Positions 24,282 to 56,242 of a DNA stretch of 64,000 bases are shown here, one piece after another. This stretch comes from Candidatus Parcubacteria bacterium (GTDB lineage: Bacteria; Patescibacteriota; Minisyncoccia; Phycocordibacterales; JAKFXT01). A model generated the notes under the pieces. That model was not told the origin of the DNA, did no database searches, and saw only the letters and a list, made by a program, of their open reading frames with translations. A program made the translations under genes and the position numbers. Location of the stretch: the NCBI GenBank assembly GCA_021414235.1, contig JAIOOV010000004.1:473591-537590 (forward strand), given 5' to 3'. Each line of letters opens with the position of its first letter. Positions within the stretch are counted from its first letter, which is position 1.

Positions 24282-26123
24282 TTATGCCTCAGGGAATTCC
24301 TTGCGGCTCTCGCGAGCAGCCATGTCCATGACACGGGATACTGCGAGACGTGCGCCCAAGAGCTTCGAGCTGTAGCTCTCATCCCCTGCTCCGATGAGTG
24401 CCGTGATGGCGGACTCGAGCGTCTGGAGGCTCCAGCCGGCGGTCGCAGTAAGCGACTGCTCGTTGGCACCAATCTCACGCACAGTGCGGAAGCGGTGTAC
24501 CTTGTCGAGCTCGTAGGAAGCCGCCTTGAGGAACTCAGGGATGTTGTGACCCTGCGCATCGAGCATGTGGAGGAGCGCAGAACTCTTGGTGCTGTTCCCT
24601 GCTGCGAGCCAGCGTACGAACATCGGCACCATAGAGAGATAGGTGGAGAAGAGCATCTCGCGGACACGCGTTGCCGAGAGCGAGAGCCAAGAGTATTCCG
24701 GCTTCTCGTACCAGGCATGCGCCACTTCGGTGAGTTCAGAGAGAACATTCTGGGCCTGCTCTGCCTTACCATCCGCTGCAGAGAGGATGAGGGCAGCTGC
24801 ATCCTCGGAGAGGAGGATTTCCTTCTCACGAGCGTAGCTTACGAGCATCTCATAGATGCGAGTCTTCTCCTCATTGCTCATGCCGGTCGCAACCTTAGGT
24901 GCTGCAGGAGCCGCCTTGAGGGTGCGAATCTGGCTTACGAGATCAAGCGGTGCATCAGCTTCCTTGCGGAGAGCGAGTGCTGCCGGAGCTGCCACTACCT
25001 CAGGGGTAGCAACTGGCTCTGCAACCTCTTCAACAACAGGAAGCGAGACTTCCATCACCGAGCTTAGAGCGACAGTGCGCGGCAGCGGCGTGAACGGATT
25101 AAGGAGATCTGCATAAGGCTTGAGTGCAGCGCCCACGGAGAGAGCGTAGCGGGACATGTCATCCCCCATGGAAGCGAGAGGCTGGAATACCTGCATCGAG
25201 CGCGAGATACCACCGGCATAGACCATGCCGTAGGAGAACATCGCGGAGAGACCAAGAAGCCCGAAGAGGAAGAAATACGTGAAGAGGGTGTCGCCTACGC
25301 CGGTGTACGGGATGGAACCGAGGTTCACCGAGACGAAGGATGCGAGCGGAGAGCTGCCAGTCACGCGGGTGAGCTCGACGTTCGGCATCGTACCGCCGCC
25401 GCCGGTGGAGCTACCGCCACCAGAAGAACTGGAAGACGAGCTGCTACCACCGCCAGAGGAAGATCCTGGAGGAGGCGGAGGAGGTGGGGGCGGAGGAGGA
25501 GGCGGAGGCACTTCTATACCGCCAGAGGAAGAACCGGAAGAAGAACCCGGAGGAGGCGGAGGAGGTGGGGGCGGAGGAGGTACCTCTATACCACCAGAGG
25601 AAGAGCTAGGAGGTGGTGGTGGGGGCGGCGGAGGAGGCGGAGGGGAAGGAGGTTCGATGTTCGGACCCGCTTCTATAGGACCACCAGAGGAGGAACTACC
25701 TGTCTCGCCGCCGGAAGATGAGCCACCGCAGCCCTCGCAGCCACCCGAAGAGGAGCCCATACCATCGCTGGAGCCGCCACATCCTTCACAACCGCCAGAG
25801 GAAGAACCCATGCCGTCGCTAGAGCCACCACAACCCTCGCAGCCACCGGAAGAGGAGCCCATACCATCGCTGGAGCCGCCACATCCTTCACAACCGCCAG
25901 AGGAAGAACCCATGCCGTCGCTAGAGCCACCCTCGGCTCCGCCACCGTCGCCGCCACCATCCGAGGAGCCCATGCCGCCACCGTCGCCGCCTTCCTGAGC
26001 AAAGACGCTGGAAATGGAATTACCAGTAAAATTATTCGAAAGAGAAAAACCGACCACGAATGAGGCTATGGTGAGCACGAGGGCACTGCTGATGATTAGA
26101 TTTTCTTTAAGGAATTGGTTCAT
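24282..26123 (-). CDS. Repeat-rich membrane protein: signal/anchor, four tandem SSDGMGSSSGGCEGCGG repeats, three poly-proline runs (11-15 Pro), a Gly/Ser-rich stretch, a TM helix, and a 330-aa C-terminal domain of unknown function
   Basis: 613-aa ORF. The repeats and the CxxC (CEGC) motifs were read from the translation. N-terminal VFAQEGGDGGG... is paralogous to the small ORF at 55944..56156. Confidence 0.7.
   Translation of the reverse strand: MNQFLKENLIISSALVLTIASFVVGFSLSNNFTGNSISSVFAQEGGDGGGMGSSDGGGDGGGAEGGSSDGMGSSSGGCEGCGGSSDGMGSSSGGCEGCGGSSDGMGSSSGGCEGCGGSSDGMGSSSGGCEGCGGSSSGGETGSSSSGGPIEAGPNIEPPSPPPPPPPPPPPPSSSSGGIEVPPPPPPPPPPPGSSSGSSSGGIEVPPPPPPPPPPPPPPGSSSGGGSSSSSSSSGGGSSTGGGGTMPNVELTRVTGSSPLASFVSVNLGSIPYTGVGDTLFTYFFLFGLLGLSAMFSYGMVYAGGISRSMQVFQPLASMGDDMSRYALSVGAALKPYADLLNPFTPLPRTVALSSVMEVSLPVVEEVAEPVATPEVVAAPAALALRKEADAPLDLVSQIRTLKAAPAAPKVATGMSNEEKTRIYEMLVSYAREKEILLSEDAAALILSAADGKAEQAQNVLSELTEVAHAWYEKPEYSWLSLSATRVREMLFSTYLSMVPMFVRWLAAGNSTKSSALLHMLDAQGHNIPEFLKAASYELDKVHRFRTVREIGANEQSLTATAGWSLQTLESAITALIGAGDESYSSKLLGARLAVSRVMDMAARESRKEFPEA
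25455..25640. repeat. Roughly 190-nt homopurine (GGAGG/GGCGG-rich) tract on the plus strand with an internal direct repeat of about 66 nt. It encodes the poly-Pro runs on the minus strand.
   Basis: Read directly from sequence. Confidence 0.75.
25722..25930 (-). repeat. In-frame tandem DNA repeats (2 x ~102 nt, equal to 4 x 17-aa GGCEGCGG units) inside the 24282..26123 CDS
   Basis: Near-identical 102-nt units visible on the plus strand (ggagcccataccatcgctggagccgccacatccttcacaaccgccagaggaagaacccatgccgtcgctagagccacc...). Confidence 0.8.
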
Positions 26124-41890: not shown

Positions 41891-44020
41891 TTAACGCTCC
41901 TCGAAGCGGGGGCTCACCCGGCAGGTAAAGGAGGCGGTATTGGAGACCTTGGCATCCCCGACCCGGCAGACGAAGCGGTAGAGAGACTGGACGGAGACCG
42001 GTGGAGTAAGGACCTGACCAAAAGCGCCGTTGGCGCGCACAGAGAGGTCGGGTCCTGAGATGACACAACGGAGGAACTGAGACTGCTCCGGCGGCACCGA
42101 GCTCACCCGCCAAGGGATGGTGCACTGAGAACCCTTCTGGACGAGCTCTCGCTCCGGCATGAGAGCAGTCACCGCGAGCGCACAGGCCTGCTCGCCAGGA
42201 GGCGGAGGAGCATCAGAGGATTCGTCGGGACAATAGTAGAGAGAGCGGGTTACGCCGCAGGAATTAGGGGCAGACTTGGCTTCAGCAGCTGGCTGCATCT
42301 CGTGGCGAGTGCACTCACCGTCCTTGTCAGTCGCAGTGCAGACATTGCACATCTTGGTCGCGCCGCAGGTAGGACACGGGATCTCCTGACAGGAAGGGAA
42401 TCTCCCCGTCTCTCCTACCCCACAGCTTGTGCGCGGCTGACAGGAGCCGGTCAGTCCGAAATTGATCGCAGTAGGATCCGTACAGAGAGAGCGTCCGCTC
42501 GAATACTGGCAGGCGCCGAGCGCACCGCCATTGAGCGCCAACGGATCGTTGCAGCGGACTGCGCCATAGCGACACTCTCCCGTTTCTCCATAATTGAGAG
42601 CGGTCTGGTCCGCGCAGAGACGCGCGACCGGCTGGTCGGTGCACTGCCCGTTCTCCGGATTCCAATTCGGCTGATTGCTCGGACAAGTGAGACCGATGAT
42701 CACGTCTTTCGTCGCGGGGCACTGAACACCGCTCGGCAGAGTCATGGAAGCGGTAGCCCGGAAATGGTACTGCTGCTTAGGCTGGCTTGCCGCCAGGACA
42801 CCCTCAAGAGAGCGACCATCATTCACCACCGCAAGAGAGGAGGGGAAGGACGTATCACCAGAGGAAGGAGTGAGCGAGTAGCTCTGCGCCGGACGCGAAG
42901 TCTGGATGGTATAGCCTCCGAAGCTTCCCCCTATGATTCCCGCAACACTGCCAGAGCTGGTGATGGTGGGCGTAGAGGTGGCGCACACAGAGGCGGGAGC
43001 TATGGTGATAGCCACGTTCTTTGAAGCTGAAAGAGGGGTACAGCCAGGCGCGCTATTCTCCGCTTGAATGGTACAGGAATATGAACCAGCCGATGTGGGT
43101 ACTCCCCCGATCGACAGAGGACTCGTCCAGCTCGTACCGGAAGGTATGGGCAGACAGCTCATACCGAGCGTCGTGTAGTTGCTGGCAGTTGCTTGATATG
43201 AGAAATTCTCGCCCACCACGCCCGCTGCTGTGCCAGAGGAAGTGATCTCCGGAGCTACAGTCGAACACGTTGCCGGAGTTACTTCTATCTCAAGCACATC
43301 CGCACGTGAACAGCTCGGAGAATTCCTCATGTAGTATCTGTCCTCGCCGCTCCCCGCCACCGTACTGCTCTGGTTATCCCCGGCTCCACCTTCATAGACC
43401 CACTCCTCAAGGTCATTACGAGAAGTGAGGGCTACGGAGTATGTCCCTGGAACAGCAGGCACTCCGGAGATGATGAGACCAGTGGAGTCTGGCACCTGGG
43501 TTACGCCCGCACGCGCCTGCACCCGAGCACTCAAGACGTTCGCGGAAAGGCCGGAACCCGTGAGGCCCGCTGGATCAAGCGAAGTGATACCTGCCCCGAA
43601 CCAGCCTGACTCAAATTCCCCCTTCTCCCGGAGCTGCGGATGCTCCCAAGGAGCAAGATCACGAGAAGGATTGGGATTCACCTGAGCGACCATCACTTCG
43701 TATGAAAAAGATTGACCGGCCTGCGTGGTGACACGGAGGGGACTCGAGAAGCGCGGCGTATTGTATTCAGTGCAATACTGAGGGCTGTAACACTGGCTGC
43801 CGGAAGCACTGCAGTCATCTATATTATTCATTTCCGCTCCGCACTGGCCTCCCGTACAGTCACTGTTACCAGCAGGACTTCCTGAGCTCGTTTCGCTGCC
43901 GCCAGCATCCTCAGCAGCAAGAACTGCAGGAATCTGTCCGATCACAGACAAGTGAATTCCCATGCCCCCGAAGAGAGCAAGCGCGAATGCGGTAGCGAGG
44001 ATAAAAGGAATTTTTTTCAT
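41891..44020 (-). CDS. Large secreted Cys-rich protein with repeated Ig-like segments and a C-terminal domain shared with the YYQ-repeat proteins
   Basis: Signal peptide MKKIPFILATAFALALFGG (internal start at 44020; track ORF runs to 44206). About 60 Cys. C-terminus FTCRVSPRFEER matches the ...CRVNPAFEEI and ...CQVNPTFEEI termini of the 49938 and 50858 products. Confidence 0.6.
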   Translation of the reverse strand: MKKIPFILATAFALALFGGMGIHLSVIGQIPAVLAAEDAGGSETSSGSPAGNSDCTGGQCGAEMNNIDDCSASGSQCYSPQYCTEYNTPRFSSPLRVTTQAGQSFSYEVMVAQVNPNPSRDLAPWEHPQLREKGEFESGWFGAGITSLDPAGLTGSGLSANVLSARVQARAGVTQVPDSTGLIISGVPAVPGTYSVALTSRNDLEEWVYEGGAGDNQSSTVAGSGEDRYYMRNSPSCSRADVLEIEVTPATCSTVAPEITSSGTAAGVVGENFSYQATASNYTTLGMSCLPIPSGTSWTSPLSIGGVPTSAGSYSCTIQAENSAPGCTPLSASKNVAITIAPASVCATSTPTITSSGSVAGIIGGSFGGYTIQTSRPAQSYSLTPSSGDTSFPSSLAVVNDGRSLEGVLAASQPKQQYHFRATASMTLPSGVQCPATKDVIIGLTCPSNQPNWNPENGQCTDQPVARLCADQTALNYGETGECRYGAVRCNDPLALNGGALGACQYSSGRSLCTDPTAINFGLTGSCQPRTSCGVGETGRFPSCQEIPCPTCGATKMCNVCTATDKDGECTRHEMQPAAEAKSAPNSCGVTRSLYYCPDESSDAPPPPGEQACALAVTALMPERELVQKGSQCTIPWRVSSVPPEQSQFLRCVISGPDLSVRANGAFGQVLTPPVSVQSLYRFVCRVGDAKVSNTASFTCRVSPRFEER

Positions 44021-44021
44021 A

Positions 44022-44936
44022 TTAGTTCCAAGAAGAGAGGTAGAGCGTGCCACCTTCGTATGGAGAGAGGTCGAGGATACTCCTACGCTCTCCCGTGTCG
44101 AGCCGCTCGATGACGATCTCGAACTGCGACGCCTCCCCCTTACGTACTCGGAGAGCTGCGTACGCGTTGTCTGGCGAGAACGCCGCATCATACGCTCGCG
44201 CCTCAAGAGTATCGTTGAGAAGAAGCTCCTTCGGATTCACCGGGTTCACCTTGAGCAGCATTACTCGCTCGAGGCCGGGAATGAGCCAGGCAACCAAAGA
44301 GTGATCCTGGCTTGCGGCGAGCTTCATGCCAGCCCCGCTCGCTCCCCAAACCTTGGTCTTGGCGAGAGTCCCTAGGTCGTAGCGCACCAGGCCTTCTGGA
44401 GCGAGCGCAAAGAGCGATTTCCCATCAAGGGACCAGACGGGATAGCTTCCCGCGCCGATGCGGCGTGGAGTCCCTGGGAGATCTATTGCATAGATATCCG
44501 AGCCGCCTCTCGCTTCCTGAGAGTACGCAAGCCCCGTACCCACCGGAGACCAGTCTGGGGAATGCCTAAAGGCTTCTCCACGAGTGATCGGACGACGTTC
44601 CTCCGTAGCGGGATCATAAATGACCACCTGGCTCGCCAGGGCTCCGGGACCGTAGGCGATATGCGCGAGACGATTGCCATCAGGAGCCACTGCCGCATCG
44701 AAATTGGAATTACTATCGCGACCGATACGACGGAGCTCTTTGGTCGCAAGCTCATACTCATACAAATTCACCTCCGTACTCCCTTTATCCGCAAGCGAAA
44801 GGAGAAGTGTGCCCTGAGGATCGAACTTAGCCAAGGACGCAGAGCGCTGATAGAAATACACGCCGAGAGCGGCAGCGAGAAGGAGTATGGAGAGGACTCC
44901 AGCGACGAGGCGAGTACGCGAGGACATTGCGTCCAT
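44022..44936 (-). CDS. TolB-like beta-propeller (PD40 repeat) protein with N-terminal anchor
   Basis: Repeated HSPDWSP..G..LAY and AFSPDNAYAAL motifs. Confidence 0.55.
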   Translation of the reverse strand: MDAMSSRTRLVAGVLSILLLAAALGVYFYQRSASLAKFDPQGTLLLSLADKGSTEVNLYEYELATKELRRIGRDSNSNFDAAVAPDGNRLAHIAYGPGALASQVVIYDPATEERRPITRGEAFRHSPDWSPVGTGLAYSQEARGGSDIYAIDLPGTPRRIGAGSYPVWSLDGKSLFALAPEGLVRYDLGTLAKTKVWGASGAGMKLAASQDHSLVAWLIPGLERVMLLKVNPVNPKELLLNDTLEARAYDAAFSPDNAYAALRVRKGEASQFEIVIERLDTGERRSILDLSPYEGGTLYLSSWN

Positions 44937-49937: not shown

Positions 49938-50795
49938 TTAGATCTCCTCAAAAGCAGGATTGACCCGGCAATCCACCGTCTTCGAGGTATTAACTTCAGA
50001 ACCGTTGTAGCAACGTACTGTGTAGGTACTCGTCTCGGTGACATTCGGTACGGATACCGAACCGGATGTCCCTGTCTGGCTCACTCCTGGGCCCGTGACC
50101 GTGCAGGAAGTAGCATTCGTCGCTGACCAGGTGAAGCTGCAGGAAGCGCCTTTGTTGATCACGATGGAGGGAGCGGCAGGAACCGTGGTGATGGTGGGCG
50201 CCGTACAAGAGGATTCCGGCGGAGCCACGGTAGCGGAACACGCACCCGCACAGCTATACGTACCGTAGGTCACCGCGCCGCAGCTATTAGCGGCAGATGT
50301 ACAGACCTGTCCCTGGTTGGCAGAGCAATAAGAAGCTTGGTAGTAGCCCTGGGAGTAGTAGTAGCCTTGATAGTACCCCTGCGAGTAATAGTAAGGTTGG
50401 TAATACCCCTGAGAGTAGTAGTAGCCTTGGGAATAGTAGTAGCCTTCGTAATACCCCTGGTAGTAAGACTGGTAATAACTTTGATAATACGATTGATAGT
50501 ACCCTTGGTAGTAACCCTGGTAGTACCCCTGATAGTAGGATTGGTAGTAGCCTTGGTAATACCCCTCTGCATAAGAATCCCCCGAAGCCGGGAGTATGAC
50601 TCCTCCCTCCTCTCCATTCGGTGAGAGCGAGTTGTAATCAATCTCTGGAGACTGCGGACCAGAGCTCTTCTCCAAATACCCCAAACTTGCTAGAGAGATG
50701 ACGAGAAAGATTGCCACACTCGCAAAGGAAAGGAGCCTGCGCTCGCGGAGTAGGTTAGAAAATCTTTTATTTATTTCACGAAAAAAGTGCCTCAT
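49938..50795 (-). CDS. Tyr/Gln/Gly-rich repeat protein 1 (YYQGYYQS repeats) with N-terminal anchor and conserved Cys-rich C-terminal domain
   Basis: 285 aa. About 25 copies of (G/S)YYQ-type units, then the ASYCSANQGQVCTSAANSCGAVTYGTYSCAGACSATVAP domain ending CRVNPAFEEI. Confidence 0.7.
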   Translation of the reverse strand: MRHFFREINKRFSNLLRERRLLSFASVAIFLVISLASLGYLEKSSGPQSPEIDYNSLSPNGEEGGVILPASGDSYAEGYYQGYYQSYYQGYYQGYYQGYYQSYYQSYYQSYYQGYYEGYYYSQGYYYSQGYYQPYYYSQGYYQGYYYSQGYYQASYCSANQGQVCTSAANSCGAVTYGTYSCAGACSATVAPPESSCTAPTITTVPAAPSIVINKGASCSFTWSATNATSCTVTGPGVSQTGTSGSVSVPNVTETSTYTVRCYNGSEVNTSKTVDCRVNPAFEEI

Positions 50796-50857
50796 CGTAC
50801 GTCTTTTATTGTAGCACTATGTAAACCCCCCTGACACCAGCGAGGTACGTCCAATTC

Positions 50858-51775
50858 TTAGATTTCTTCAAAAGTCGGATTGACCTGGCAGTTCACCGTC
50901 TTTGTGGTATTCACCATGGAGCCATTGTAACAACGCACTTGGTAGCTTCTCGATTGCGTGATATCAGGGACAGACACTGAGCCCGAAAGACCAGTGGAAT
51001 TCACCCCAGGACCGGTCACGACGCAAGAAGTAGCATTAGCACTGCTCCAGCTAAAGCTGCAAGCATCGCCTCTATTGATGACGATTGTCGGAGAAGGAGG
51101 CGCAACAGTGATAACTGGGACGACGCAGGAAGATTCCGCAGGAGCCACGGTAGCGGAACACGCACCCGCACAGCTATACGTACCGTAGGTCACCGCGCCG
51201 CAGCTATTAGCGGCAGATGTACAGACCTGTCCCTGGTTGGCAGAGCAATAAGAAGCTTGGTAGTAACCTTGATAATAACCTTGATACGCCGCTTGATAGG
51301 CGGACTGGTAATAGCTCTGGTAGTAGGATTGATAAGCAGCCTCATATCCAGCTTGGTAATACCCTTCGTAATAAGGCTGATAGTAGCTCTCGTACGTAGA
51401 CTGATATTGGCTCTGGTAATACGCCTCGTAGGTCGACTGGTACTGGCTTTGATAGTAACCCTCGTACGTAGACTGATATTGGCTCTGGTAATACGCCTCG
51501 TAGGTCGACTGGTACTGGCTCTGGTAATAGCTTTGGTAAGCAGCTTCAAAATAAGAATCCCCCGAAGCCGGGAGTATGACTCCCCCCTCCTCACCATTCG
51601 GTGAGAGCGAGTTGTAATCAATCTCTGGAGACTGCGGACCGTTATCAATCGGCTGAAGGTAGCTCAAGGCGGAAATCACAGCCAAAACCAGAGCCAATAC
51701 CGCCAGAAAGAGCAACTTCCGATCACACAGCAAAGCGCCCATATTACGCCGCCATCTCTTAAGAAGGTACTTCAT
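50858..51775 (-). CDS. Tyr/Gln-rich repeat protein 2 (YYQSQYQSTYEA repeats), tandem paralog of 49938..50795
   Basis: 305 aa. Shares two exact or near-exact nucleotide blocks with its neighbour (50221-50345 = 51142-51266; 50572-50660 ~ 51552-51640). Confidence 0.7.
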   Translation of the reverse strand: MKYLLKRWRRNMGALLCDRKLLFLAVLALVLAVISALSYLQPIDNGPQSPEIDYNSLSPNGEEGGVILPASGDSYFEAAYQSYYQSQYQSTYEAYYQSQYQSTYEGYYQSQYQSTYEAYYQSQYQSTYESYYQPYYEGYYQAGYEAAYQSYYQSYYQSAYQAAYQGYYQGYYQASYCSANQGQVCTSAANSCGAVTYGTYSCAGACSATVAPAESSCVVPVITVAPPSPTIVINRGDACSFSWSSANATSCVVTGPGVNSTGLSGSVSVPDITQSRSYQVRCYNGSMVNTTKTVNCQVNPTFEEI

Positions 51776-51784
51776 CCTATTTTG

Positions 51785-52609
51785 TTACTGAATCGCACTT
51801 AAGTCTGCCCCAGAGAGGAGTAGAAGATTTTTCTCTACAGAGCGCAGAGAACCCGCAAGACCTTGTGGATGATATCGAGCGTCGTTCCCAGGGTACGCCC
51901 TACCCCACTCCTCTGGCGTCATGGCTTTGAAACCAGCAAGAGCTTTCTCCAGGGCACTACGAGCCTCTTCCCTCTCTCCGAGATTAAGGAGCGCAACACC
52001 AAGAGAGTTCTGAAGCCAAGGATTCTCCGGATGATAAGAAAGGGCCTTTTCTGCAACCGTAAGGACATCCTTATAGCGACCCTGCCGAAAATAGATCCAA
52101 CAGAGGTCATTCGCTCCCGCCCAGCTCTCCGGTTCCAATTCCAGATACCTAGCGAAGTCACCCTCTGCCTCCGAGAGATTATTCCTATATCCGTACACAA
52201 GCCCACGCATGTAATAAGCGTTGTGGATGGAAGAATCCAGCCGCAGGGTCTCGTTTATAGCCTCGATAGCTTTGCTATAACGCCCCTGAAAGAAATAAAC
52301 CCGGGAGAGACCGAAATGGATATATCCCGGCTCTGGATACCCTAAGTCGAGAGCCCTCTTATAAAGTTCCTCTGCCTTCTTTAGGTCATGAGCATTCTCT
52401 CCGAGATAAAAATTACCCGCGCGATAGGCTAAGCTAGCATCCTCCGGCGCAAGCGCGAGAGCTACGGCAGGCATATGTAGCCTCTCCATAAACACATGGG
52501 CCCACAAGGGTCGATGGAAATCGACATAGGAATAGAGGCTCTTCCAACTAAGAAGAGTCGTGAGAGCGAGGAGAAGACCAAGGAGGCAAAGAACCGCACG
52601 CAGGCGCAT
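51785..52609 (-). CDS. TPR-repeat protein with signal/anchor
   Basis: 274 aa, multiple TPR-like helices (AYRAGNFYLGENAHDLKKAEELYKRALDL...). Confidence 0.6.
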   Translation of the reverse strand: MRLRAVLCLLGLLLALTTLLSWKSLYSYVDFHRPLWAHVFMERLHMPAVALALAPEDASLAYRAGNFYLGENAHDLKKAEELYKRALDLGYPEPGYIHFGLSRVYFFQGRYSKAIEAINETLRLDSSIHNAYYMRGLVYGYRNNLSEAEGDFARYLELEPESWAGANDLCWIYFRQGRYKDVLTVAEKALSYHPENPWLQNSLGVALLNLGEREEARSALEKALAGFKAMTPEEWGRAYPGNDARYHPQGLAGSLRSVEKNLLLLSGADLSAIQ

Positions 52610-52652
52610 AGATATGAATATTGTATAGTAAGGACGCTAAGCGCCCAAGCCG

Positions 52653-54119
52653 ATGAATACCCAGTATCAAAGAGAAGACCCGCGCAGACTTGAGGTTGCG
52701 ATCCGTACAAAAGATTTTGCTTCTCTCTATGTGAAATCTTACTGGAAACGAAGTTTCCTAGAAGCCCTCCTTGGGACCCTGGAGGAACGTCTCGGGATAG
52801 AAATCTTGACCAAAGTACCGGAGAATCTTCGTGATGTTCACCTGCTGATATTCAAGAACCTGACAATCATAGAAAAATTGAGGAGACAGGGAATATTAGA
52901 GAAGGTCGAAGTCCTTAATCCTCCACCAGATGAGCCCCCTCTATACCGCGTTCATACAAAGGGCCATCTTCGCGCCTCCGGTGCAAGCTTCCTTGATCCT
53001 GAAAAAGCCCTGTGGAGCGCGCTCGGGGAGTGCGTCGAACGCTCTCTATGGTCAGGCTCTTCGGAATGGTACGAAAAGAAGATCAAGGTCTCTTCGTATA
53101 AAGAGCTTCCTGGGGATAAGATAGACCCCCGCTCAATTACTGGTTTCTCCGAGGAACAGAAGAGCTTGGATCCGATGCTACAAGTGGATGAATCGACAGT
53201 TCTCGGCTGGGTACAAGCCAAAGAAAAAATCTCCGGAAAGATGATCTGGGTACCTCTCCAGCTTTTCAGCGCCGAATATTGCCAGAAGAGACAGAAGTCT
53301 CCTGAACGACCGGAAAACGTCGAGCCACTTCTCCGTTCCGCCGTAACCACAGGACTCGCGACTTCTTCACATAGCCACGAAGAAGCCGTCCTCTACGGGG
53401 CATTGGAAGCGATCGAACGCGATGCTTTCATGATCTGCTGGCTCAAACGCCTCTCGCCTCCTCGCATCGATATCAATCACCTCGCCGAACAAGACGATGA
53501 TCTGAAAAGCATTCTTGATTCCCTGGCTCGCTACCACCTCCGTGCAGAACTGCTTCTACTTCCGACTGATTTTCCTTTCCTGGTCATCGCAGCCGTTCTG
53601 CTCGATGAAAGCGGAAAGGGGCCGGCGTTTACTATGGGCGCAAAGGCGCATTGGGATATGAAAACCGCCATCCTTGGAGCCCTCTCTGAAGCCGCTAGCG
53701 TACGCTTTTCTCTTAAAACCGCATACGAAGCCCCTGTGGACATGAAGAAGGTCGGTCGCAAGGAGCGCTTGATCTATTGGGCAAAGGAGGAAAACACCCC
53801 GAAACGCAGCTTTCTTACACAGGGGGAAATAAGAAAGATCACTCTAGAAGAGAATAAGAGTGATACTGGCACAGAATCTCTCCGACTGTCGGAAGCCTTG
53901 AGAAATAAGAAATATCCATTGTATGAAGTCGAGATAAGTTCCGAAGCAAGCCGTAGAAGCGGTTTTCGTTCAGTCTGTGTGCATATCCCTGACCTGCAGC
54001 CGATGCATCTCGACGAGCGAGTTCCCGCTCTCGCCGGAAAACGCCTGGCAGAGATTCCCTCTCTCCTCGGATACGAACCCGCCAAAGAAATGAATCCTGA
54101 ACCCCACCCCTTTCCATGA
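52653..54119 (+). CDS. YcaO-domain protein, azoline-forming cyclodehydratase type (C-terminal PxPxP)
   Basis: GASFLDPEKALWSALGECVERSLW and HEEAVLYGALEAIERDAFMICWL (YcaO ATP-binding Glu motifs). Extreme C-terminus NPEPHPFP. Stop TGA overlaps the start of the next gene (ATGA). Confidence 0.8.
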   Translation: MNTQYQREDPRRLEVAIRTKDFASLYVKSYWKRSFLEALLGTLEERLGIEILTKVPENLRDVHLLIFKNLTIIEKLRRQGILEKVEVLNPPPDEPPLYRVHTKGHLRASGASFLDPEKALWSALGECVERSLWSGSSEWYEKKIKVSSYKELPGDKIDPRSITGFSEEQKSLDPMLQVDESTVLGWVQAKEKISGKMIWVPLQLFSAEYCQKRQKSPERPENVEPLLRSAVTTGLATSSHSHEEAVLYGALEAIERDAFMICWLKRLSPPRIDINHLAEQDDDLKSILDSLARYHLRAELLLLPTDFPFLVIAAVLLDESGKGPAFTMGAKAHWDMKTAILGALSEAASVRFSLKTAYEAPVDMKKVGRKERLIYWAKEENTPKRSFLTQGEIRKITLEENKSDTGTESLRLSEALRNKKYPLYEVEISSEASRRSGFRSVCVHIPDLQPMHLDERVPALAGKRLAEIPSLLGYEPAKEMNPEPHPFP

Positions 54120-54874
54120 ATAACCATTTCGCCAAGCGGTTCCATCATCAAGCCATCGCGAACTGGCGTCTACCCAAAACTCGCGATGCCAAGAATCCGA
54201 TCCCCAGGGAAGATATCTTATTCAAGACATACCCTCGCTCTGAAAACACGGCGCTCGCCGAGCCGCTTCCCCTCAGCCATACACTCGAGAAAACCCTCTC
54301 CGAGCGGAAGACGACGCGCTCCTTCGATCCAGTCTCCGCCGTCAGTTTCCAAGAACTCTCTTCCCTGCTCTTCTGGAGCGCCGGACTTAGAGAGAACCGT
54401 ACAGACCCACAACAGAGCAAACGGTTCTATCCATCCGCGGGAGAACGTTATCCGCTAGAGATATATATAGCTGCGCGCAACGTCGATGGCTTGCCTAAAG
54501 GCCTGTATCACTTCAATCTCCTCAAGAACTCTCTGGAGAAGATAGGTGGTGAGGAATACTGCGATAATTTTCAAAAAAACCTCGGGTACGAATGGTCTAG
54601 GGATACCGCAGTAGCCATCCTCATCACCGGAGTATGGGAGCGGACTTTCTCAAAATACGGGGATTTCGGATATCGGCTCATATGTACAGAAGCCGGACAT
54701 GTGGCGCAAAATCTACAGCTCATAGCCCAATCCCTTGGTCTGGACTATGCCTCTATCGCAGGGTTCAAAGAAAAAGAGATGGATACCCTCCTAAATCTGG
54801 ACTCGGATAAAGAATCATCTCTCTACCTGACCCTCATAGGAAAAGCTACACCTTCCACCCGAACGAACGCATGA
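54116..54874 (+). CDS. SagB-type (McbC-like) FMN-dependent dehydrogenase of the nitroreductase superfamily
   Basis: SERKTTRSFDPVSAVSFQELSSLLFWSAGL...YPSAGERYPLEIYI...ICTEAGHVAQNLQLIAQSLGL. Translationally coupled to the YcaO gene. Confidence 0.75.
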   Translation: MNNHFAKRFHHQAIANWRLPKTRDAKNPIPREDILFKTYPRSENTALAEPLPLSHTLEKTLSERKTTRSFDPVSAVSFQELSSLLFWSAGLRENRTDPQQSKRFYPSAGERYPLEIYIAARNVDGLPKGLYHFNLLKNSLEKIGGEEYCDNFQKNLGYEWSRDTAVAILITGVWERTFSKYGDFGYRLICTEAGHVAQNLQLIAQSLGLDYASIAGFKEKEMDTLLNLDSDKESSLYLTLIGKATPSTRTNA

Positions 54875-55940
54875 GTGCGGCGAACTCTTCATCTACCAGA
54901 GAAATACGTTCTACATTAAGCCGCGTCTGTACATCGGACAGAGCCTCTTTGCTTGCCAGGTACTTATAGAAACGCTCGTTGCGATACGCAGGATCAGAGA
55001 ACGGCGCAAGGAGGACGGATATCTCTCCCGCTTTTGACTTTCCATACTGTTGAGAAAGATACAGGGCGTATTGATACCCTGTCCAAATGCGCTGATCACG
55101 GTTACCCTCCGTCAGATTCCACGCCTCTTTATAGAGAGCCTCTGCTTCAGCTGCATGATCTTCGCCTGTGAGAGTAGCGATGCCGAGCAGGATAGCCTGT
55201 CGCGTGATGCGCGCGGAAAGCACGGAATTATCGAAGCCCAAGGTACGGGCTGCGATGAGTTCATCGTTGCCTATGCGTATCGCCTCGTGCACCTGGTTCC
55301 ACAGAGACTTAAGATTTTCTTCATCCGCGCTCGTACGAGCCTGCCTCACACTGAGCGCAAGGATCTCAGGGAAGGATTTATCAAAAGAAATACGGAAGAG
55401 AGAGACAGCCGTAGGATAAAAAGAGCTTGCATACTCCGAGAGTCGAGTATATGCCGCCTCAATATTCCCATTGGAGTTGAAGGCAGAGTACGGGGTCTTG
55501 TCGAAGACGTATTTCGAATATTCCGGATCTTTGTTATTAGCCAAGTAAAGCTCGCCCATAAGCTGGATAGACCAAGCGCGAATGATGTCCGCATAATTCT
55601 CATTGGCAGCCACCTCTCGGAGCGTAGCTATAGAACTCTGATATTCCTTAGCGAGTCCCTGAGCATACCCCACATTATATTTGATATACCCTTCTTGATT
55701 GAGATCCTGGGCATCAAGCAATGCCGCTTGGAAGAAGGGAATAGCTTTAGAGAATTCACGGGCCTTCATGTGCGCAAGACCTTTTTTGAAATCCGCATTC
55801 TGCTCCCTAACATACGTCACCGTATTCGGCTTCACAGAGGGTTCTTGCGATTGAGCATAAAGATAATAAATACTCCCCAAGAAGAGAACTAGGAGCAAGG
55901 CGCCGATAATAGTGCGGGATGTGAGATAAGAGCGAAGCAT
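54846..55940 (-). CDS. Membrane-anchored TPR-like or helical-repeat hypothetical protein
   Basis: 364 aa. N-terminal TM. Start codon is 3 nt downstream of the stop of the small Gly/Cys ORF. Confidence 0.5.
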   Translation of the reverse strand: MLRSYLTSRTIIGALLLVLFLGSIYYLYAQSQEPSVKPNTVTYVREQNADFKKGLAHMKAREFSKAIPFFQAALLDAQDLNQEGYIKYNVGYAQGLAKEYQSSIATLREVAANENYADIIRAWSIQLMGELYLANNKDPEYSKYVFDKTPYSAFNSNGNIEAAYTRLSEYASSFYPTAVSLFRISFDKSFPEILALSVRQARTSADEENLKSLWNQVHEAIRIGNDELIAARTLGFDNSVLSARITRQAILLGIATLTGEDHAAEAEALYKEAWNLTEGNRDQRIWTGYQYALYLSQQYGKSKAGEISVLLAPFSDPAYRNERFYKYLASKEALSDVQTRLNVERISLVDEEFAALMRSFGWKV

Positions 55941-55943
55941 GAT

Positions 55944-56156
55944 TTAGGAACCACCGCACCCCTCGCAACCACAGCCATCGGCGCTACCGCCGCCATCCCC
56001 TCCACCTGAACACTCACAATCCTTCCCGCCTCCCTGCGCAAGCACTGAGGAAATCTTCTGTTCGCTCCAGAAGGAAGCATCTCCATTCGACCTATCAAGC
56101 GCCGCATGAAACATGAAAGCGGCGCTTACCCCCGCCACGACGCCCAACCCCTTCAT
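55944..56156 (-). CDS. Small Gly/Ser/Cys-rich peptide (70 aa from ATG 56156, or 85 aa from GTG 56201). Candidate McbA-like TOMM precursor, or a metal-binding peptide.
   Basis: C-terminal tail AQGGGKDCECSGGGDGGGSADGCGCEGCGGS. Homologous to the N-terminal region of the 24282..26123 protein (FAQEGGDGGG...GGCEGCGG). Confidence 0.45.
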   Translation of the reverse strand: MKGLGVVAGVSAAFMFHAALDRSNGDASFWSEQKISSVLAQGGGKDCECSGGGDGGGSADGCGCEGCGGS

Positions 56157-56242
56157 AATTGTAGAGAAAAAGTTCTTCACGTATGCAATTAATATTAGCA
56201 CCCTGCTTCAAGAAGCTTTGTTGATAACTCCCCTTTAATGTA

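What the first reader, a model, noticed from the sequence alone, without database searches (positions are those of the whole stretch)
52653..56201. YcaO cyclodehydratase plus SagB-type dehydrogenase pair: a TOMM/azol(in)e RiPP-type locus in an otherwise reduced, housekeeping-dense genome
Two translationally coupled genes (ATGA overlap at 54116-54119) sit together. One is a YcaO-domain protein with both ATP-binding Glu motifs and the C-terminal PxPxP motif (NPEPHPFP) that marks azoline-forming YcaOs. The other is a SagB/McbC-type FMN dehydrogenase. Together they are the minimal cyclodehydratase plus dehydrogenase core of thiazole/oxazole-modified peptide biosynthesis. No E1-like/ocin-ThiF partner or recognisable RRE is adjacent, so this would be a stand-alone-YcaO architecture. 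The pair is flanked by two TPR proteins (51785..52609 and 54846..55940). A McbA-like Gly/Ser/Cys-rich small ORF lies 1.1 kb away on the opposite strand. If the organism is a CPR-type bacterium (inference from shortened core proteins), such a locus would be rarely described there.
Basis: partly seen in the sequence, partly recalled or inferred. Interest (0 to 1): 0.85.

Follow-up and report, generated by a model that had tools for sequence, protein, structure and literature searches.

The report
Partner-less azole-peptide locus in a CPR bacterium
A tiny-genome Parcubacteria (CPR) bacterium carries a genuine YcaO cyclodehydratase plus SagB dehydrogenase pair, the enzymes that turn cysteines in a peptide into thiazole rings. 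Such loci were already reported in CPR genomes, but this one goes with an unusual membrane-anchored, acidic Gly/Cys-rich precursor and a TPR-like partner protein that are conserved across many CPR lineages.

Summary
The locus holds four genes:
- 52653-54119 is a YcaO with both ExxE ATP/Mg motifs and a terminal PHPFP. Its fold matches LynD and McbD.
- 54116-54874 overlaps it by ATGA and is a SagB-type dehydrogenase that passes TIGR03605.
- 54846-55940 is a TPR-like protein by fold, though not by Pfam.
- 55944-56156 is an unannotated Gly/Cys/Ser/Asp-rich peptide gene.

The organism is a Candidatus Parcubacteria bacterium.

Sharrar et al. 2020 reported 110 LAP clusters in 93 CPR genomes.

Comparison of about 90 related loci adds the following:
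- This YcaO clade lacks any E1/SagC or ThiF partner, whereas its nearest non-CPR relatives all have one.
- It carries about 40 extra N-terminal residues.
- It sits next to a conserved precursor family: basic N-terminus, TM helix, an A-x-A-D/Q motif and an acidic Gly/Cys core. Some members are fused to Hint domains.
- The precursor gene is almost always followed directly by the TPR-like membrane protein.

One caveat: the precursor and TPR-like pair also occurs without a nearby YcaO, so the enzyme-substrate link remains an inference.

Verdict: a new variant of a known kind, of moderate interest.

The parts
52653..54119 (+). YcaO cyclodehydratase, 488 aa. It is SagD-like but has no partner protein, and it carries about 40 extra N-terminal residues compared with canonical SagD-type YcaOs.
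54116..54874 (+). SagB-type FMN-dependent azoline dehydrogenase, 252 aa, translationally coupled to the YcaO by an ATGA overlap.
   Evidence: TIGR03605 scores 140.9 bits against a 78.4 cutoff, plus PF00881. PDB relatives are BmdC oxidase, CyaGox and McbC. The overlap was read. YcaO followed by SagB is conserved in about 74 of 80 related loci.
54846..55940 (-). P364: a membrane-anchored TPR-like alpha-solenoid protein, 364 aa. It is the conserved downstream partner of the precursor gene and is probably a peptide-binding, non-enzymatic protein.
55944..56156 (-). Candidate precursor peptide, 70 aa from the ATG at 56156 (the maximal ORF runs to the GTG at 56201). It has a hydrophobic N-terminal segment, a linker ending ISSVLA-QGGG, and a 30-aa acidic Gly/Cys/Ser core with 5 Cys. 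It is not annotated in public protein sets.
   Evidence: ORF. The L001 homolog shares AQGGGKDC. The leader HMM gives E=7.7e-5, although this sequence was part of the training set. It is absent from the protein collection under either start.
51785..52609 (-). TPR-274: a membrane-anchored canonical TPR protein, divergent from the YcaO. It is a frequent neighbour in CPR loci.
   Evidence: TPR_1, TPR_2 and related Pfam hits. Homologs lie within 7 kb of the YcaO in about 22 CPR loci. A homolog is also present in L088, which has no YcaO.
50858..51775 (-). Tyr/Gln/Ser-repeat surface protein, 305 aa, with a TM anchor and a Cys/Ser/Thr-rich stretch followed by an Ig-like C-terminal domain ending FEEI. 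Whether it belongs to the system is uncertain.
   Evidence: Sequence, no Pfam hit. Homologs of the C-terminal domain lie directly downstream of the TPR-274 homolog in L007, L018 and L032. Leader-bearing proteins with similar YYSQ repeats occur in L016 and L034.
49938..50795 (-). Paralogous Tyr/Gln repeat surface protein, 285 aa. Whether it belongs to the system is uncertain.
24282..26123 (-). Possible second substrate: a 613-aa protein with two TM helices. After TM1 it has NSISSVFAQEGG, then four copies of SSDGMGSSSGGCEGCGG, then poly-Pro tracts.
   Evidence: Translation, DNA tandem repeat. Among all ORFs held, the motif SSVxAQxGG occurs only here and in the small precursors. The leader HMM gives no hit, so the link is tentative.

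Best explanation
This is a partner-less variant of a thiazole/oxazole-modified peptide (TOMM/LAP-type) system that is characteristic of CPR bacteria.

Shown:
- A SagD-like YcaO with an intact ATP/Mg site and the azoline-type C-terminal PxPxP motif is translationally coupled to a SagB-type FMN dehydrogenase.
- The clade has no E1/SagC or Ocin-ThiF leader-binding partner.
- Next to it lies a conserved family of precursor-like genes, each followed by a TPR-like membrane protein.

Inferred mechanism:
1. The 70-aa peptide is made in the cytoplasm.
2. Its leader is recognised directly by the YcaO. The leader consists of a basic N-terminus, a hydrophobic helix and a linker. The roughly 40-residue clade-specific N-terminal extension of the YcaO may take part in this recognition.
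3. The YcaO uses ATP to cyclodehydrate the five Cys (and perhaps Ser) of the core QGGGKDCECSGGGDGGGSADGCGCEGCGGS to azolines.
4. SagB oxidises the azolines to azoles.
5. The signal-anchor-like leader then takes the modified peptide across the membrane through Sec. It is cut at the conserved small-x-Ala site (VLA|Q here, AHA|D in relatives), which obeys the signal-peptidase -3/-1 rule.
6. Outside the cell, the membrane-anchored TPR-like P364 protein, and possibly TPR-274, binds, holds or passes on the acidic azole-rich peptide.

The biological role (antibiotic, metal binding or host contact) is not known.
For: Enzymes:
- Gene coupling is shown.
- YcaO followed by SagB is conserved in about 74 of 80 loci.

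Absence of a partner:
- No E1/ThiF hit among the neighbours.
- jackhmmer seeded with SagC/E1-like proteins hits 24 loci, all non-CPR, and none of L001-L044 or the window.
- The non-CPR relatives carry TIGR03882/TIGR03603 partners.

Precursor family:
- A Gly/Cys scan finds such ORFs next to the YcaO in many CPR loci and almost none in about 500 kb of non-CPR loci.
- A leader-only HMM recovers members that were not in its training set, all beside the YcaO: L019 (E=2.6e-9), L008, L009, L030, L054 and L022.
- The architecture is uniform: 3-4 basic residues, a TM helix, a 15-28 aa gap, Ala at -1 and A/V/T at -3, then a core with net charge -4 to -15.
- In many loci the precursor is divergently transcribed within 150-300 nt of the YcaO.

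Accessory protein and other correlations:
- The precursor is followed directly by P364.
- The N-terminal extension tracks with precursor type: median 121 residues for type A, 79 for type B and 85 for canonical YcaOs.
- The two loci without SagB (L021, L030) have Cys-free cores.
- Loci with no YcaO in view have only 1-2 Cys.
- LAP clusters with YcaO plus nitroreductase are reported in 93 CPR genomes.
Against: - There is no experimental or mass-spectrometry evidence. The substrate assignment rests on gene neighbourhood alone.
- In this window the peptide is 1.07 kb from SagB and convergent with it, rather than adjacent to the YcaO.
- The precursor-P364 pair also occurs without a YcaO in view in 5 of 5 independent P364-anchored loci. 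These include L088, which has 6.5-8 kb flanks. The pair can therefore probably function without azole installation.
- The YcaO scores below the curated SagD cutoff.
- No RRE-like fold was recognised in the N-terminal region.
- The small-x-Ala site lies 15-28 residues after the hydrophobic segment, much further than a normal signal-peptidase c-region.
- P364 and TPR-274 are predicted to face outward, so they cannot replace the missing cytoplasmic leader-binding partner.
- No Shine-Dalgarno sequence precedes the proposed ATG.
Confidence: 0.6

Rival explanations
1. The enzymes perform the same chemistry, but the targets are envelope proteins rather than a diffusible peptide. YcaO-SagB would install azoles in Gly/Cys-rich (and possibly Ser/Tyr-rich) low-complexity segments of Sec-exported, membrane-anchored surface proteins. 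The modified segments would stay on the cell surface and might serve in host attachment or metal binding.
For: - Leader-family members are often parts of larger proteins. Some are fused to Hint domains (L013, L016, L017). Others are fused to other C-terminal domains (L003, L018) or to YYSQ-repeat regions (L016, L034).
- The window encodes a 613-aa two-TM protein with a similar motif and GGCEGCGG repeats on poly-Pro stalks.
- The accessory proteins are membrane-anchored TPR-type binders.
- The locus has no transporter, protease or immunity gene.
Against: - Most members, including the one in this window, are short (70-150 aa) and end right after the core.
- A conserved small-x-Ala site suggests the peptide is released from the anchor.
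- The 613-aa protein and the YYQ proteins are not detected by the leader HMM.
- No azole-modified structural protein of this kind is known.
Confidence: 0.2
2. The Gly/Cys/Asp-rich peptide, P364 and TPR-274 form an independent CPR envelope module that often happens to lie near the YcaO-SagB pair. The true YcaO substrate would be something else, either unrecognised or encoded elsewhere.
For: - The P364 family is very large, with 1023 representative clusters.
- In 5 of 5 new P364-anchored loci the precursor-P364 pair has no YcaO in view, and L088 keeps the TPR-274 homolog as well.
- In this window the peptide is on the opposite strand, 1.07 kb away.
Against: - Seen from the YcaO side, the precursor is the immediate divergent neighbour (0-300 nt) in many loci that share only 31-42% YcaO identity.
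- Cys content is high (3-22) in YcaO-linked cores and low (1-2) in unlinked ones. Cores are Cys-free where SagB is missing.
- No alternative Cys/Ser/Thr-rich small ORF is conserved at these loci.
- Most of the YcaO-less contigs are short (5-8 kb).
Confidence: 0.15
3. The YcaO performs a different amide-activation reaction, such as thioamide or amidine formation, rather than azoline formation.
For: - YcaOs without partners are best known from bottromycin (thiazoline and macroamidine) and from thioamide systems.
- The protein scores below the SagD cutoff.
- A weaker hit to the McrA thioamidation YcaO model, TIGR03266, scores 76 bits.
Against: - The gene is translationally coupled to a SagB-type azoline oxidase.
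- The C-terminal PxPxP motif typical of azoline formers is invariant.
- No TfuA is present among the neighbours.
- The closest sequence models and structures are SagD, LynD and McbD.
- The neighbouring peptide is rich in Cys.
Confidence: 0.05

Closest known systems
CPR linear azol(in)e-containing peptide (LAP) clusters reported by genome mining (Sharrar et al. 2020, mBio, PMC7298704)
   Same: Both have a YcaO next to a nitroreductase/SagB gene in CPR genomes, 51 of them Parcubacteria, with a nearby Ser/Cys-rich precursor of about 84 aa. Both are predicted rather than tested.
   Different: The published example has a peptidase gene and a precursor next to the YcaO. This locus has no peptidase. 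Its precursor has a membrane-anchor-like leader with an A-x-A-D/Q motif and an acidic core. It is coupled to a TPR-like membrane protein. None of these features is mentioned in the text I could read.
Microcin B17 system (McbA with McbBCD)
   Different: There is no McbB/E1-like partner. There are no export or immunity genes. The core is strongly acidic, with net charge -4 here and down to -15 in relatives. The leader is hydrophobic and signal-like rather than a short soluble helix.
Canonical SagBCD-type TOMM clusters, which are the nearest non-CPR relatives (Nitrospinaceae, Nostoc/Aliinostoc, Chitinophagaceae, haloarchaea)
   Same: The gene order YcaO then SagB is the same. YcaO identity is 26-29%, and the same ATP and PxPxP motifs are present.
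   Different: Those relatives have a SagC/E1-like leader-binding protein upstream of the YcaO or fused to it, and their YcaOs pass TIGR03604 at 303-326 bits. The CPR clade has no such partner, scores 198.7 bits, and has about 40 extra N-terminal residues.
Stand-alone YcaOs of bottromycin biosynthesis
   Same: They act without an E1-like or ThiF-like partner.
   Different: Bottromycin precursors use a follower peptide, and the enzymes are divergent YcaOs. The protein here is SagD-like, is paired with SagB, and its candidate substrate has an N-terminal leader.
Partner-less 'type B' YcaO-SagB loci found here (some CPR genomes and MAGs labelled Gammaproteobacteria)
   Same: They have no E1-like partner and the same gene order. 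YcaO identity is 29-33%.
   Different: Type B precursors are soluble peptides of 57-75 aa, directly upstream of the YcaO on the same strand. Their leader carries a [A/S]-D-x-[K/I]-E-F motif and their Cys-rich cores are often basic. Their YcaOs lack the N-terminal extension.

Membership tests
TOMM / LAP biosynthetic system | YcaO-domain cyclodehydratase with an intact ATP/Mg2+ binding site (two ExxE motifs) | tested here: met
TOMM / LAP biosynthetic system | C-terminal PxPxP motif of azoline-forming YcaOs | tested here: met
   The protein ends NPEPHPFP. P484, H485 and P486 are invariant and align with the C-termini of LynD and TruD.
TOMM / LAP biosynthetic system | Score above the curated cutoff of the SagD family model TIGR03604 | tested here: not met
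   198.7 bits against a cutoff of 219.25. The non-CPR relatives score 234-326 bits.
TOMM / LAP biosynthetic system | SagB/McbC-type FMN dehydrogenase | tested here: met
   TIGR03605 scores 140.9 bits against a cutoff of 78.4. PDB relatives are BmdC oxidase, CyaGox and McbC.
TOMM / LAP biosynthetic system | Leader-binding partner (E1-like C protein or Ocin-ThiF-like F protein with an RRE), separate or fused. Present in most LAP systems but not all. | tested here: not met
TOMM / LAP biosynthetic system | Precursor peptide with a Cys/Ser/Thr-rich core encoded nearby and conserved in synteny | tested here: met
   The leader family is found beside the YcaO in about 25-28 of about 37 distinct partner-less CPR loci.
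TOMM / LAP biosynthetic system | Azol(in)e rings actually installed on the peptide | not testable with these tools
   This needs co-expression or in vitro reconstitution followed by mass spectrometry.
Microcin B17-like (McbA) precursors | Sequence relationship to McbA, and the McbB partner plus export and immunity genes | tested here: not met
   The peptide has no NCBIfam or Pfam hit. There is no E1-like partner. No transporter or immunity genes are present. Only the Gly/Cys/Ser composition resembles McbA.
Sec signal peptide cleaved by signal peptidase I | Basic n-region, hydrophobic h-region, and small residues at -3 and -1 | tested here: met
   There are 3-4 basic residues before a TM-strength helix. 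Ala is at -1 and A/V/T at -3 in about 30 divergent members.
Sec signal peptide cleaved by signal peptidase I | Short c-region (about 3-7 residues) between the h-region and the cleavage site | tested here: not met
   The gap is 14-28 residues. Cleavage by signal peptidase is therefore only a hypothesis.
TPR proteins (for 54846-55940) | Match to TPR sequence profiles | tested here: not met
   No TPR family in Pfam or NCBIfam.
TPR proteins (for 54846-55940) | TPR-like helical-hairpin solenoid fold | tested here: met

The most novel reading that the evidence does not exclude
Across CPR bacteria, YcaO-SagB may act not as an antibiotic factory but as a protein-modifying system. It would install thiazoles in acidic Gly/Cys-rich segments of Sec-exported, membrane-anchored envelope proteins and peptides. 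These would include Hint-domain fusions that could transfer the modified segment onto another molecule. TPR-like membrane proteins would act as dedicated receptors. Together these parts would build an azole-bearing cell surface used for host contact or metal capture.
Probability: 0.2. Interest if true: 0.8.

Novelty: new variant of a known kind. Interest (0 to 1): 0.55.

Why it matters
CPR bacteria are thought to live as episymbionts with minimal genomes, so any conserved non-housekeeping system is a clue to how they deal with hosts or competitors.

If the model holds, this would be an azole-peptide pathway that works without the usual leader-binding partner. Its leader would look like a secretion signal, which would explain the lack of a dedicated transporter and protease. 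It would also come with a conserved extracellular TPR-like binder.

Three practical consequences follow:
- The locus offers a compact two-enzyme set for testing partner-independent leader recognition by a SagD-type YcaO.
- It defines a precursor family, so far annotated as hypothetical or not called at all, that genome-mining tools miss.
- It raises the question of whether CPR surfaces carry azole-modified proteins.

Tried and rejected
- A single-protein scan of genome contigs with the YcaO found nothing. The family alignment was needed.
- Word-indexed homology searches for the 364-aa protein returned only 3 proteins. The exhaustive HMMER search showed the family is large.
The 4-sequence alignment worked but gave only 6 loci.
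- BLASTP between the small peptide and the 613-aa protein gave no alignment, probably because of low-complexity masking. An unmasked local alignment finds only the 10-residue ISSV[L/F]AQxGG match, with a shuffle z-score of about 3.2. The paralogy is therefore tentative.
- The leader HMM does not detect the Tyr/Gln repeat proteins or the 613-aa protein, so I do not count them as members.
- I considered P364 as a substitute for the missing leader-binding partner. I rejected this as the main reading because its charge distribution predicts an outward-facing domain and it has no invariant catalytic-type residues.
- I considered a mobile-element or plasmid origin. There is no plasmid match, and the flanks are housekeeping genes (EF-Ts, S2, RF1, L31, L25).
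- Promoter and terminator scans were no better than shuffled sequence.
- Rfam found only one tRNA in the window.

Full report
**Observation**

The region holds four genes.
- 52653-54119 (+) encodes a 488-aa protein.
- 54116-54874 (+) encodes a 252-aa protein. The two genes share an ATGA at 54116-54119, read directly from the sequence.
- On the opposite strand, 54846-55940 encodes a 364-aa protein. Its 3' end overlaps that of the 252-aa gene by 29 nt.
- Three nucleotides upstream of the 364-aa gene's ATG ends a small ORF, 55944-56201. Its product ends ...AQGGGKDCECSGGGDGGGSADGCGCEGCGGS.
- 51785-52609 (-) lies divergent from the first gene.

**The enzymes**

The 488-aa protein matches Pfam YcaO (E=1.6e-48, residues 115-448). 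Its best NCBIfam match is the SagD family model TIGR03604, at 198.7 bits. That is just under the curated cutoff of 219.25.

In an alignment of 30 homologs the following are invariant: E126, E129, R130, E252, E255, R256, D257 and the terminal P484-H485-P486. A profile search of solved structures aligns residues 100-488 with the YcaO domains of LynD, TruD and MusD. The alignment places the two ExxE motifs and the C-terminal PxPxP on their counterparts.

The 252-aa protein passes the SagB model TIGR03605 (140.9 bits against 78.4). Its solved relatives are azoline oxidases: BmdC, CyaGox and McbC. It carries a Lys-Tyr pair (SKYGDFGY) that is also present in the L001 and L003 homologs. From memory, this corresponds to the Lys-Tyr motif described for TOMM dehydrogenases; I did not test it.

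**Organism and context**

The exact YcaO protein is deposited as 'YcaO-like family protein [Candidatus Parcubacteria bacterium]' on a 544-kb contig. The flanks encode EF-Ts, S2, RF1, L31, L25, a lytic transglycosylase and several unannotated membrane or secreted proteins. The CPR inference is therefore correct.

Within about 10 kb I found no E1/ThiF-like protein, peptidase or ABC transporter.

**What is already known**

Sharrar et al. 2020 (PMC7298704) described a LAP cluster in a Microgenomates genome. It comprised a YcaO, a nitroreductase, a peptidase and an 84-aa precursor. They then found 110 LAP clusters in 93 further CPR genomes, 51 of them Parcubacteria. In 89 of those clusters a nitroreductase lay next to the YcaO. 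I found no experimental follow-up. The kind of locus is therefore published as a prediction.

**Comparative anatomy**

I fetched 80 loci from species-representative genomes using the YcaO alignment, plus loci for close homologs.

YcaO followed by SagB is conserved in about 74 of 80 loci.

The loci split cleanly by partner protein. An iterative search seeded with SagC/E1-like proteins finds a partner directly upstream of the YcaO, or fused to it, in 24 loci. All 24 are non-CPR (Nitrospinaceae, cyanobacteria, Chitinophagaceae, haloarchaea and others). None is found in L001-L044 or in the window.

**The precursor family (type A)**

A composition scan found Gly/Cys-rich ORFs beside the YcaO in many CPR loci. 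It found almost none in the roughly 500 kb of non-CPR loci. These ORFs share one architecture:
- a basic N-terminus, often MVAIQK or MAIIKK;
- a TM-strength hydrophobic helix;
- a 14-28 residue linker, which in some members contains an NLxxLExKxKNxL helix;
- an invariant Ala preceded at -3 by A, V or T (AHA|D, AYA|D, VLA|Q);
- a core of 28-98 residues made of Gly, Cys, Ser and Asp/Glu, with net charge -4 to -15.

An HMM built only from the leaders recovered additional members that were not in its training set. All lie next to the YcaO: L019 (E=2.6e-9), L008, L009, L030, L054 and L022.

The window's peptide, starting at the ATG at 56156, belongs to this family. Its close homolog in L001 shares ...V(L/H)AQGGGKDC.... 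It is absent from the public protein collection under either start I tried, while the homologs in L024 and L032 are annotated only as hypothetical.

**A second precursor type (type B)**

A second, more conventional precursor type occurs in the other partner-less loci. These are soluble peptides of 57-75 aa with an [A/S]-D-x-[K/I]-E-F leader motif. They sit directly upstream of the YcaO on the same strand.

**Accessory proteins**

The 364-aa protein has no Pfam or NCBIfam match. It models confidently as a TM helix followed by about 17 helices, and it matches TPR and 14-3-3-type binders.

The family is large, with 1023 representative clusters and 293 at E<=1e-30.

In at least 14 distinct YcaO-anchored loci, the gene lies immediately downstream of the precursor gene on the same strand.

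As a reverse test, I fetched six metagenome loci through this protein. All six have a leader-type ORF directly upstream. Only one of the six (the same locus as L032) shows a YcaO within its flanks. L088 has flanks of 6.5 and 7.9 kb and carries a TPR-274 homolog, yet has no YcaO or SagB. The cores in these loci have only 1-2 Cys, typically as DCxxxDC. The precursor-P364 pair is therefore a broader CPR module, and YcaO-SagB accompanies the Cys-rich subset.

TPR-274 homologs lie within 7 kb in about 22 CPR loci. They are usually followed by a surface protein that shares the C-terminal domain of the window's Tyr/Gln-repeat proteins. This may be a separate pair.

**Larger members**

Some leader-family members are parts of bigger proteins. 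In L013, L016 and L017 the core is followed directly by a Cys that opens a Hint domain (Pfam hits above cutoff). By the known chemistry of Hint domains, this would cleave or transfer the preceding segment. That step is inference.

L003 and L018 carry another C-terminal domain, and L016 and L034 carry YYSQ repeats.

The window itself encodes a 613-aa two-TM protein (24282-26123). It has NSISSVFAQEGG, four GGCEGCGG-containing repeats and poly-Pro tracts. The SSVxAQxGG motif occurs nowhere else in the sequence I hold except in the small precursors. The leader HMM does not detect this protein, so the link is tentative.

**Mechanism**

Shown:
- the enzymes are intact;
- the clade has no partner protein;
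- the neighbourhood with the precursor family and P364 is conserved.

Inferred:
- The YcaO recognises the leader directly.
- It cyclodehydrates Cys (perhaps also Ser) using ATP, and SagB oxidises the azolines.
- The signal-like leader drives Sec export.
- Cleavage follows at the small-x-Ala site.
- The outward-facing TPR-like proteins bind the product.

Weak points:
- The distance from the hydrophobic helix to the Ala site is long.
- P364 occurs without a YcaO.
- The peptide in this window is convergent with the enzyme genes and 1.07 kb away.
- There are no chemical data at all.

Two small correlations fit the model. Cores are Cys-free in the two loci without SagB (L021, L030). Cores are Cys-poor where no YcaO is in view.

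**Verdict**

The class is already reported in CPR.

The following appear to be undescribed in the literature I could search:
- the partner-less clade and its N-terminal extension;
- the membrane-anchored acidic precursor family;
- the invariant coupling of that precursor to a TPR-like membrane protein;
- the Hint fusions.

I rate the finding a new variant of a known kind, with interest 0.55.

Noticed in passing
window 24282-26123 (-); DNA repeat 25720-25931: A 613-aa protein with two TM helices. Between the helices it has NSISSVFAQEGG, four copies of a 17-aa repeat (SSDGMGSSSGGCEGCGG; DNA period 51/102) and three poly-Pro tracts of 11-15 residues. It has no Pfam hit. The motif resembles the end of the small precursor's leader.
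   Followed up: partly
window 49938-50795 and 50858-51775 (-); also 41891-44206 (-): Two paralogous TM-anchored proteins made of long YYQ[S/G] repeats. Each then has a Cys/Ser/Thr-rich stretch and an Ig-like C-terminal domain ending NP[T/A]FEEI. The same domain is repeated in the 771-aa protein at 41891-44206, and it occurs directly downstream of TPR-274 homologs in L007, L018 and L032.
   Followed up: partly
L013:1310-2152, L016:5749-6594, L017:6068-6778 (all -): Leader-family precursors in which the Gly/Cys core is followed immediately by a Cys that opens a Hint/intein-like domain (Pfam PF05203 or PF07591, above cutoff). This suggests autocatalytic release or transfer of the core.
   Followed up: partly
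L021:8212-8544 and L030:8273-8542 (+): Two Saccharibacteria loci have no SagB homolog. There the leader-family ORF sits where SagB normally is, and its core has no Cys at all (Gly/Asp/Ser/Thr only, ending in Tyr).
   Followed up: no
L031, L033, L037, L039, L040, L042, L044, L047, L048, L050, L051, L055, L069, L072 (about 100-500 nt upstream of the YcaO): A second precursor type for partner-less YcaO-SagB pairs. These are soluble peptides of 57-75 aa with a leader motif [A/S]-D-x-[K/I]-E-F and Cys-rich, often Pro- or Lys-rich cores. L044 also has an M16 peptidase downstream.
   Followed up: partly
L004:8218-9843, L003:10430-13491, L088:4604-6355: A protein combining a phosphoribosyltransferase-like N-terminus with a PQQ-type beta-propeller recurs next to the system. 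It lies downstream of SagB in L003 and L004. In the YcaO-less locus L088 it lies beside the precursor-P364 pair.
   Followed up: no
L004:2917-4293 (-): A 458-aa protein with a TSGTSGTP adenylate-forming-type motif lies next to the precursor in the Giovannonibacteria locus. It has no Pfam hit at E<0.01.
   Followed up: no
many type A cores (L010, L024, L025, L029, L009, L030, L054, L021, L090): The core peptides frequently end in a single aromatic residue (Tyr or Phe) after the Gly/Cys/Asp-rich stretch.
   Followed up: no
window 50001-56000: GC content is 0.50-0.51 across the locus and its repeat-protein neighbours. Most of the window is at 0.54-0.59.
   Followed up: no
window 56243-56271 (+): A perfect sigma-70 consensus (TTGACA, 17 nt, TATAAT) lies upstream of the unannotated 200-aa secreted protein gene at 56310-56912. 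Its hexamers sit on the strand opposite the AT-rich region upstream of the small precursor.
   Followed up: no
L008, L019, L031, L042-L055: Several loci with CPR-type genes carry record titles such as Bathyarchaeia, Bdellovibrionales or Gammaproteobacteria MAG. L008 and L019 have type A leader-family precursors, while L031 and several of L042-L055 have partner-less YcaOs with type B precursors. Some of these may be mis-binned contigs.
   Followed up: no
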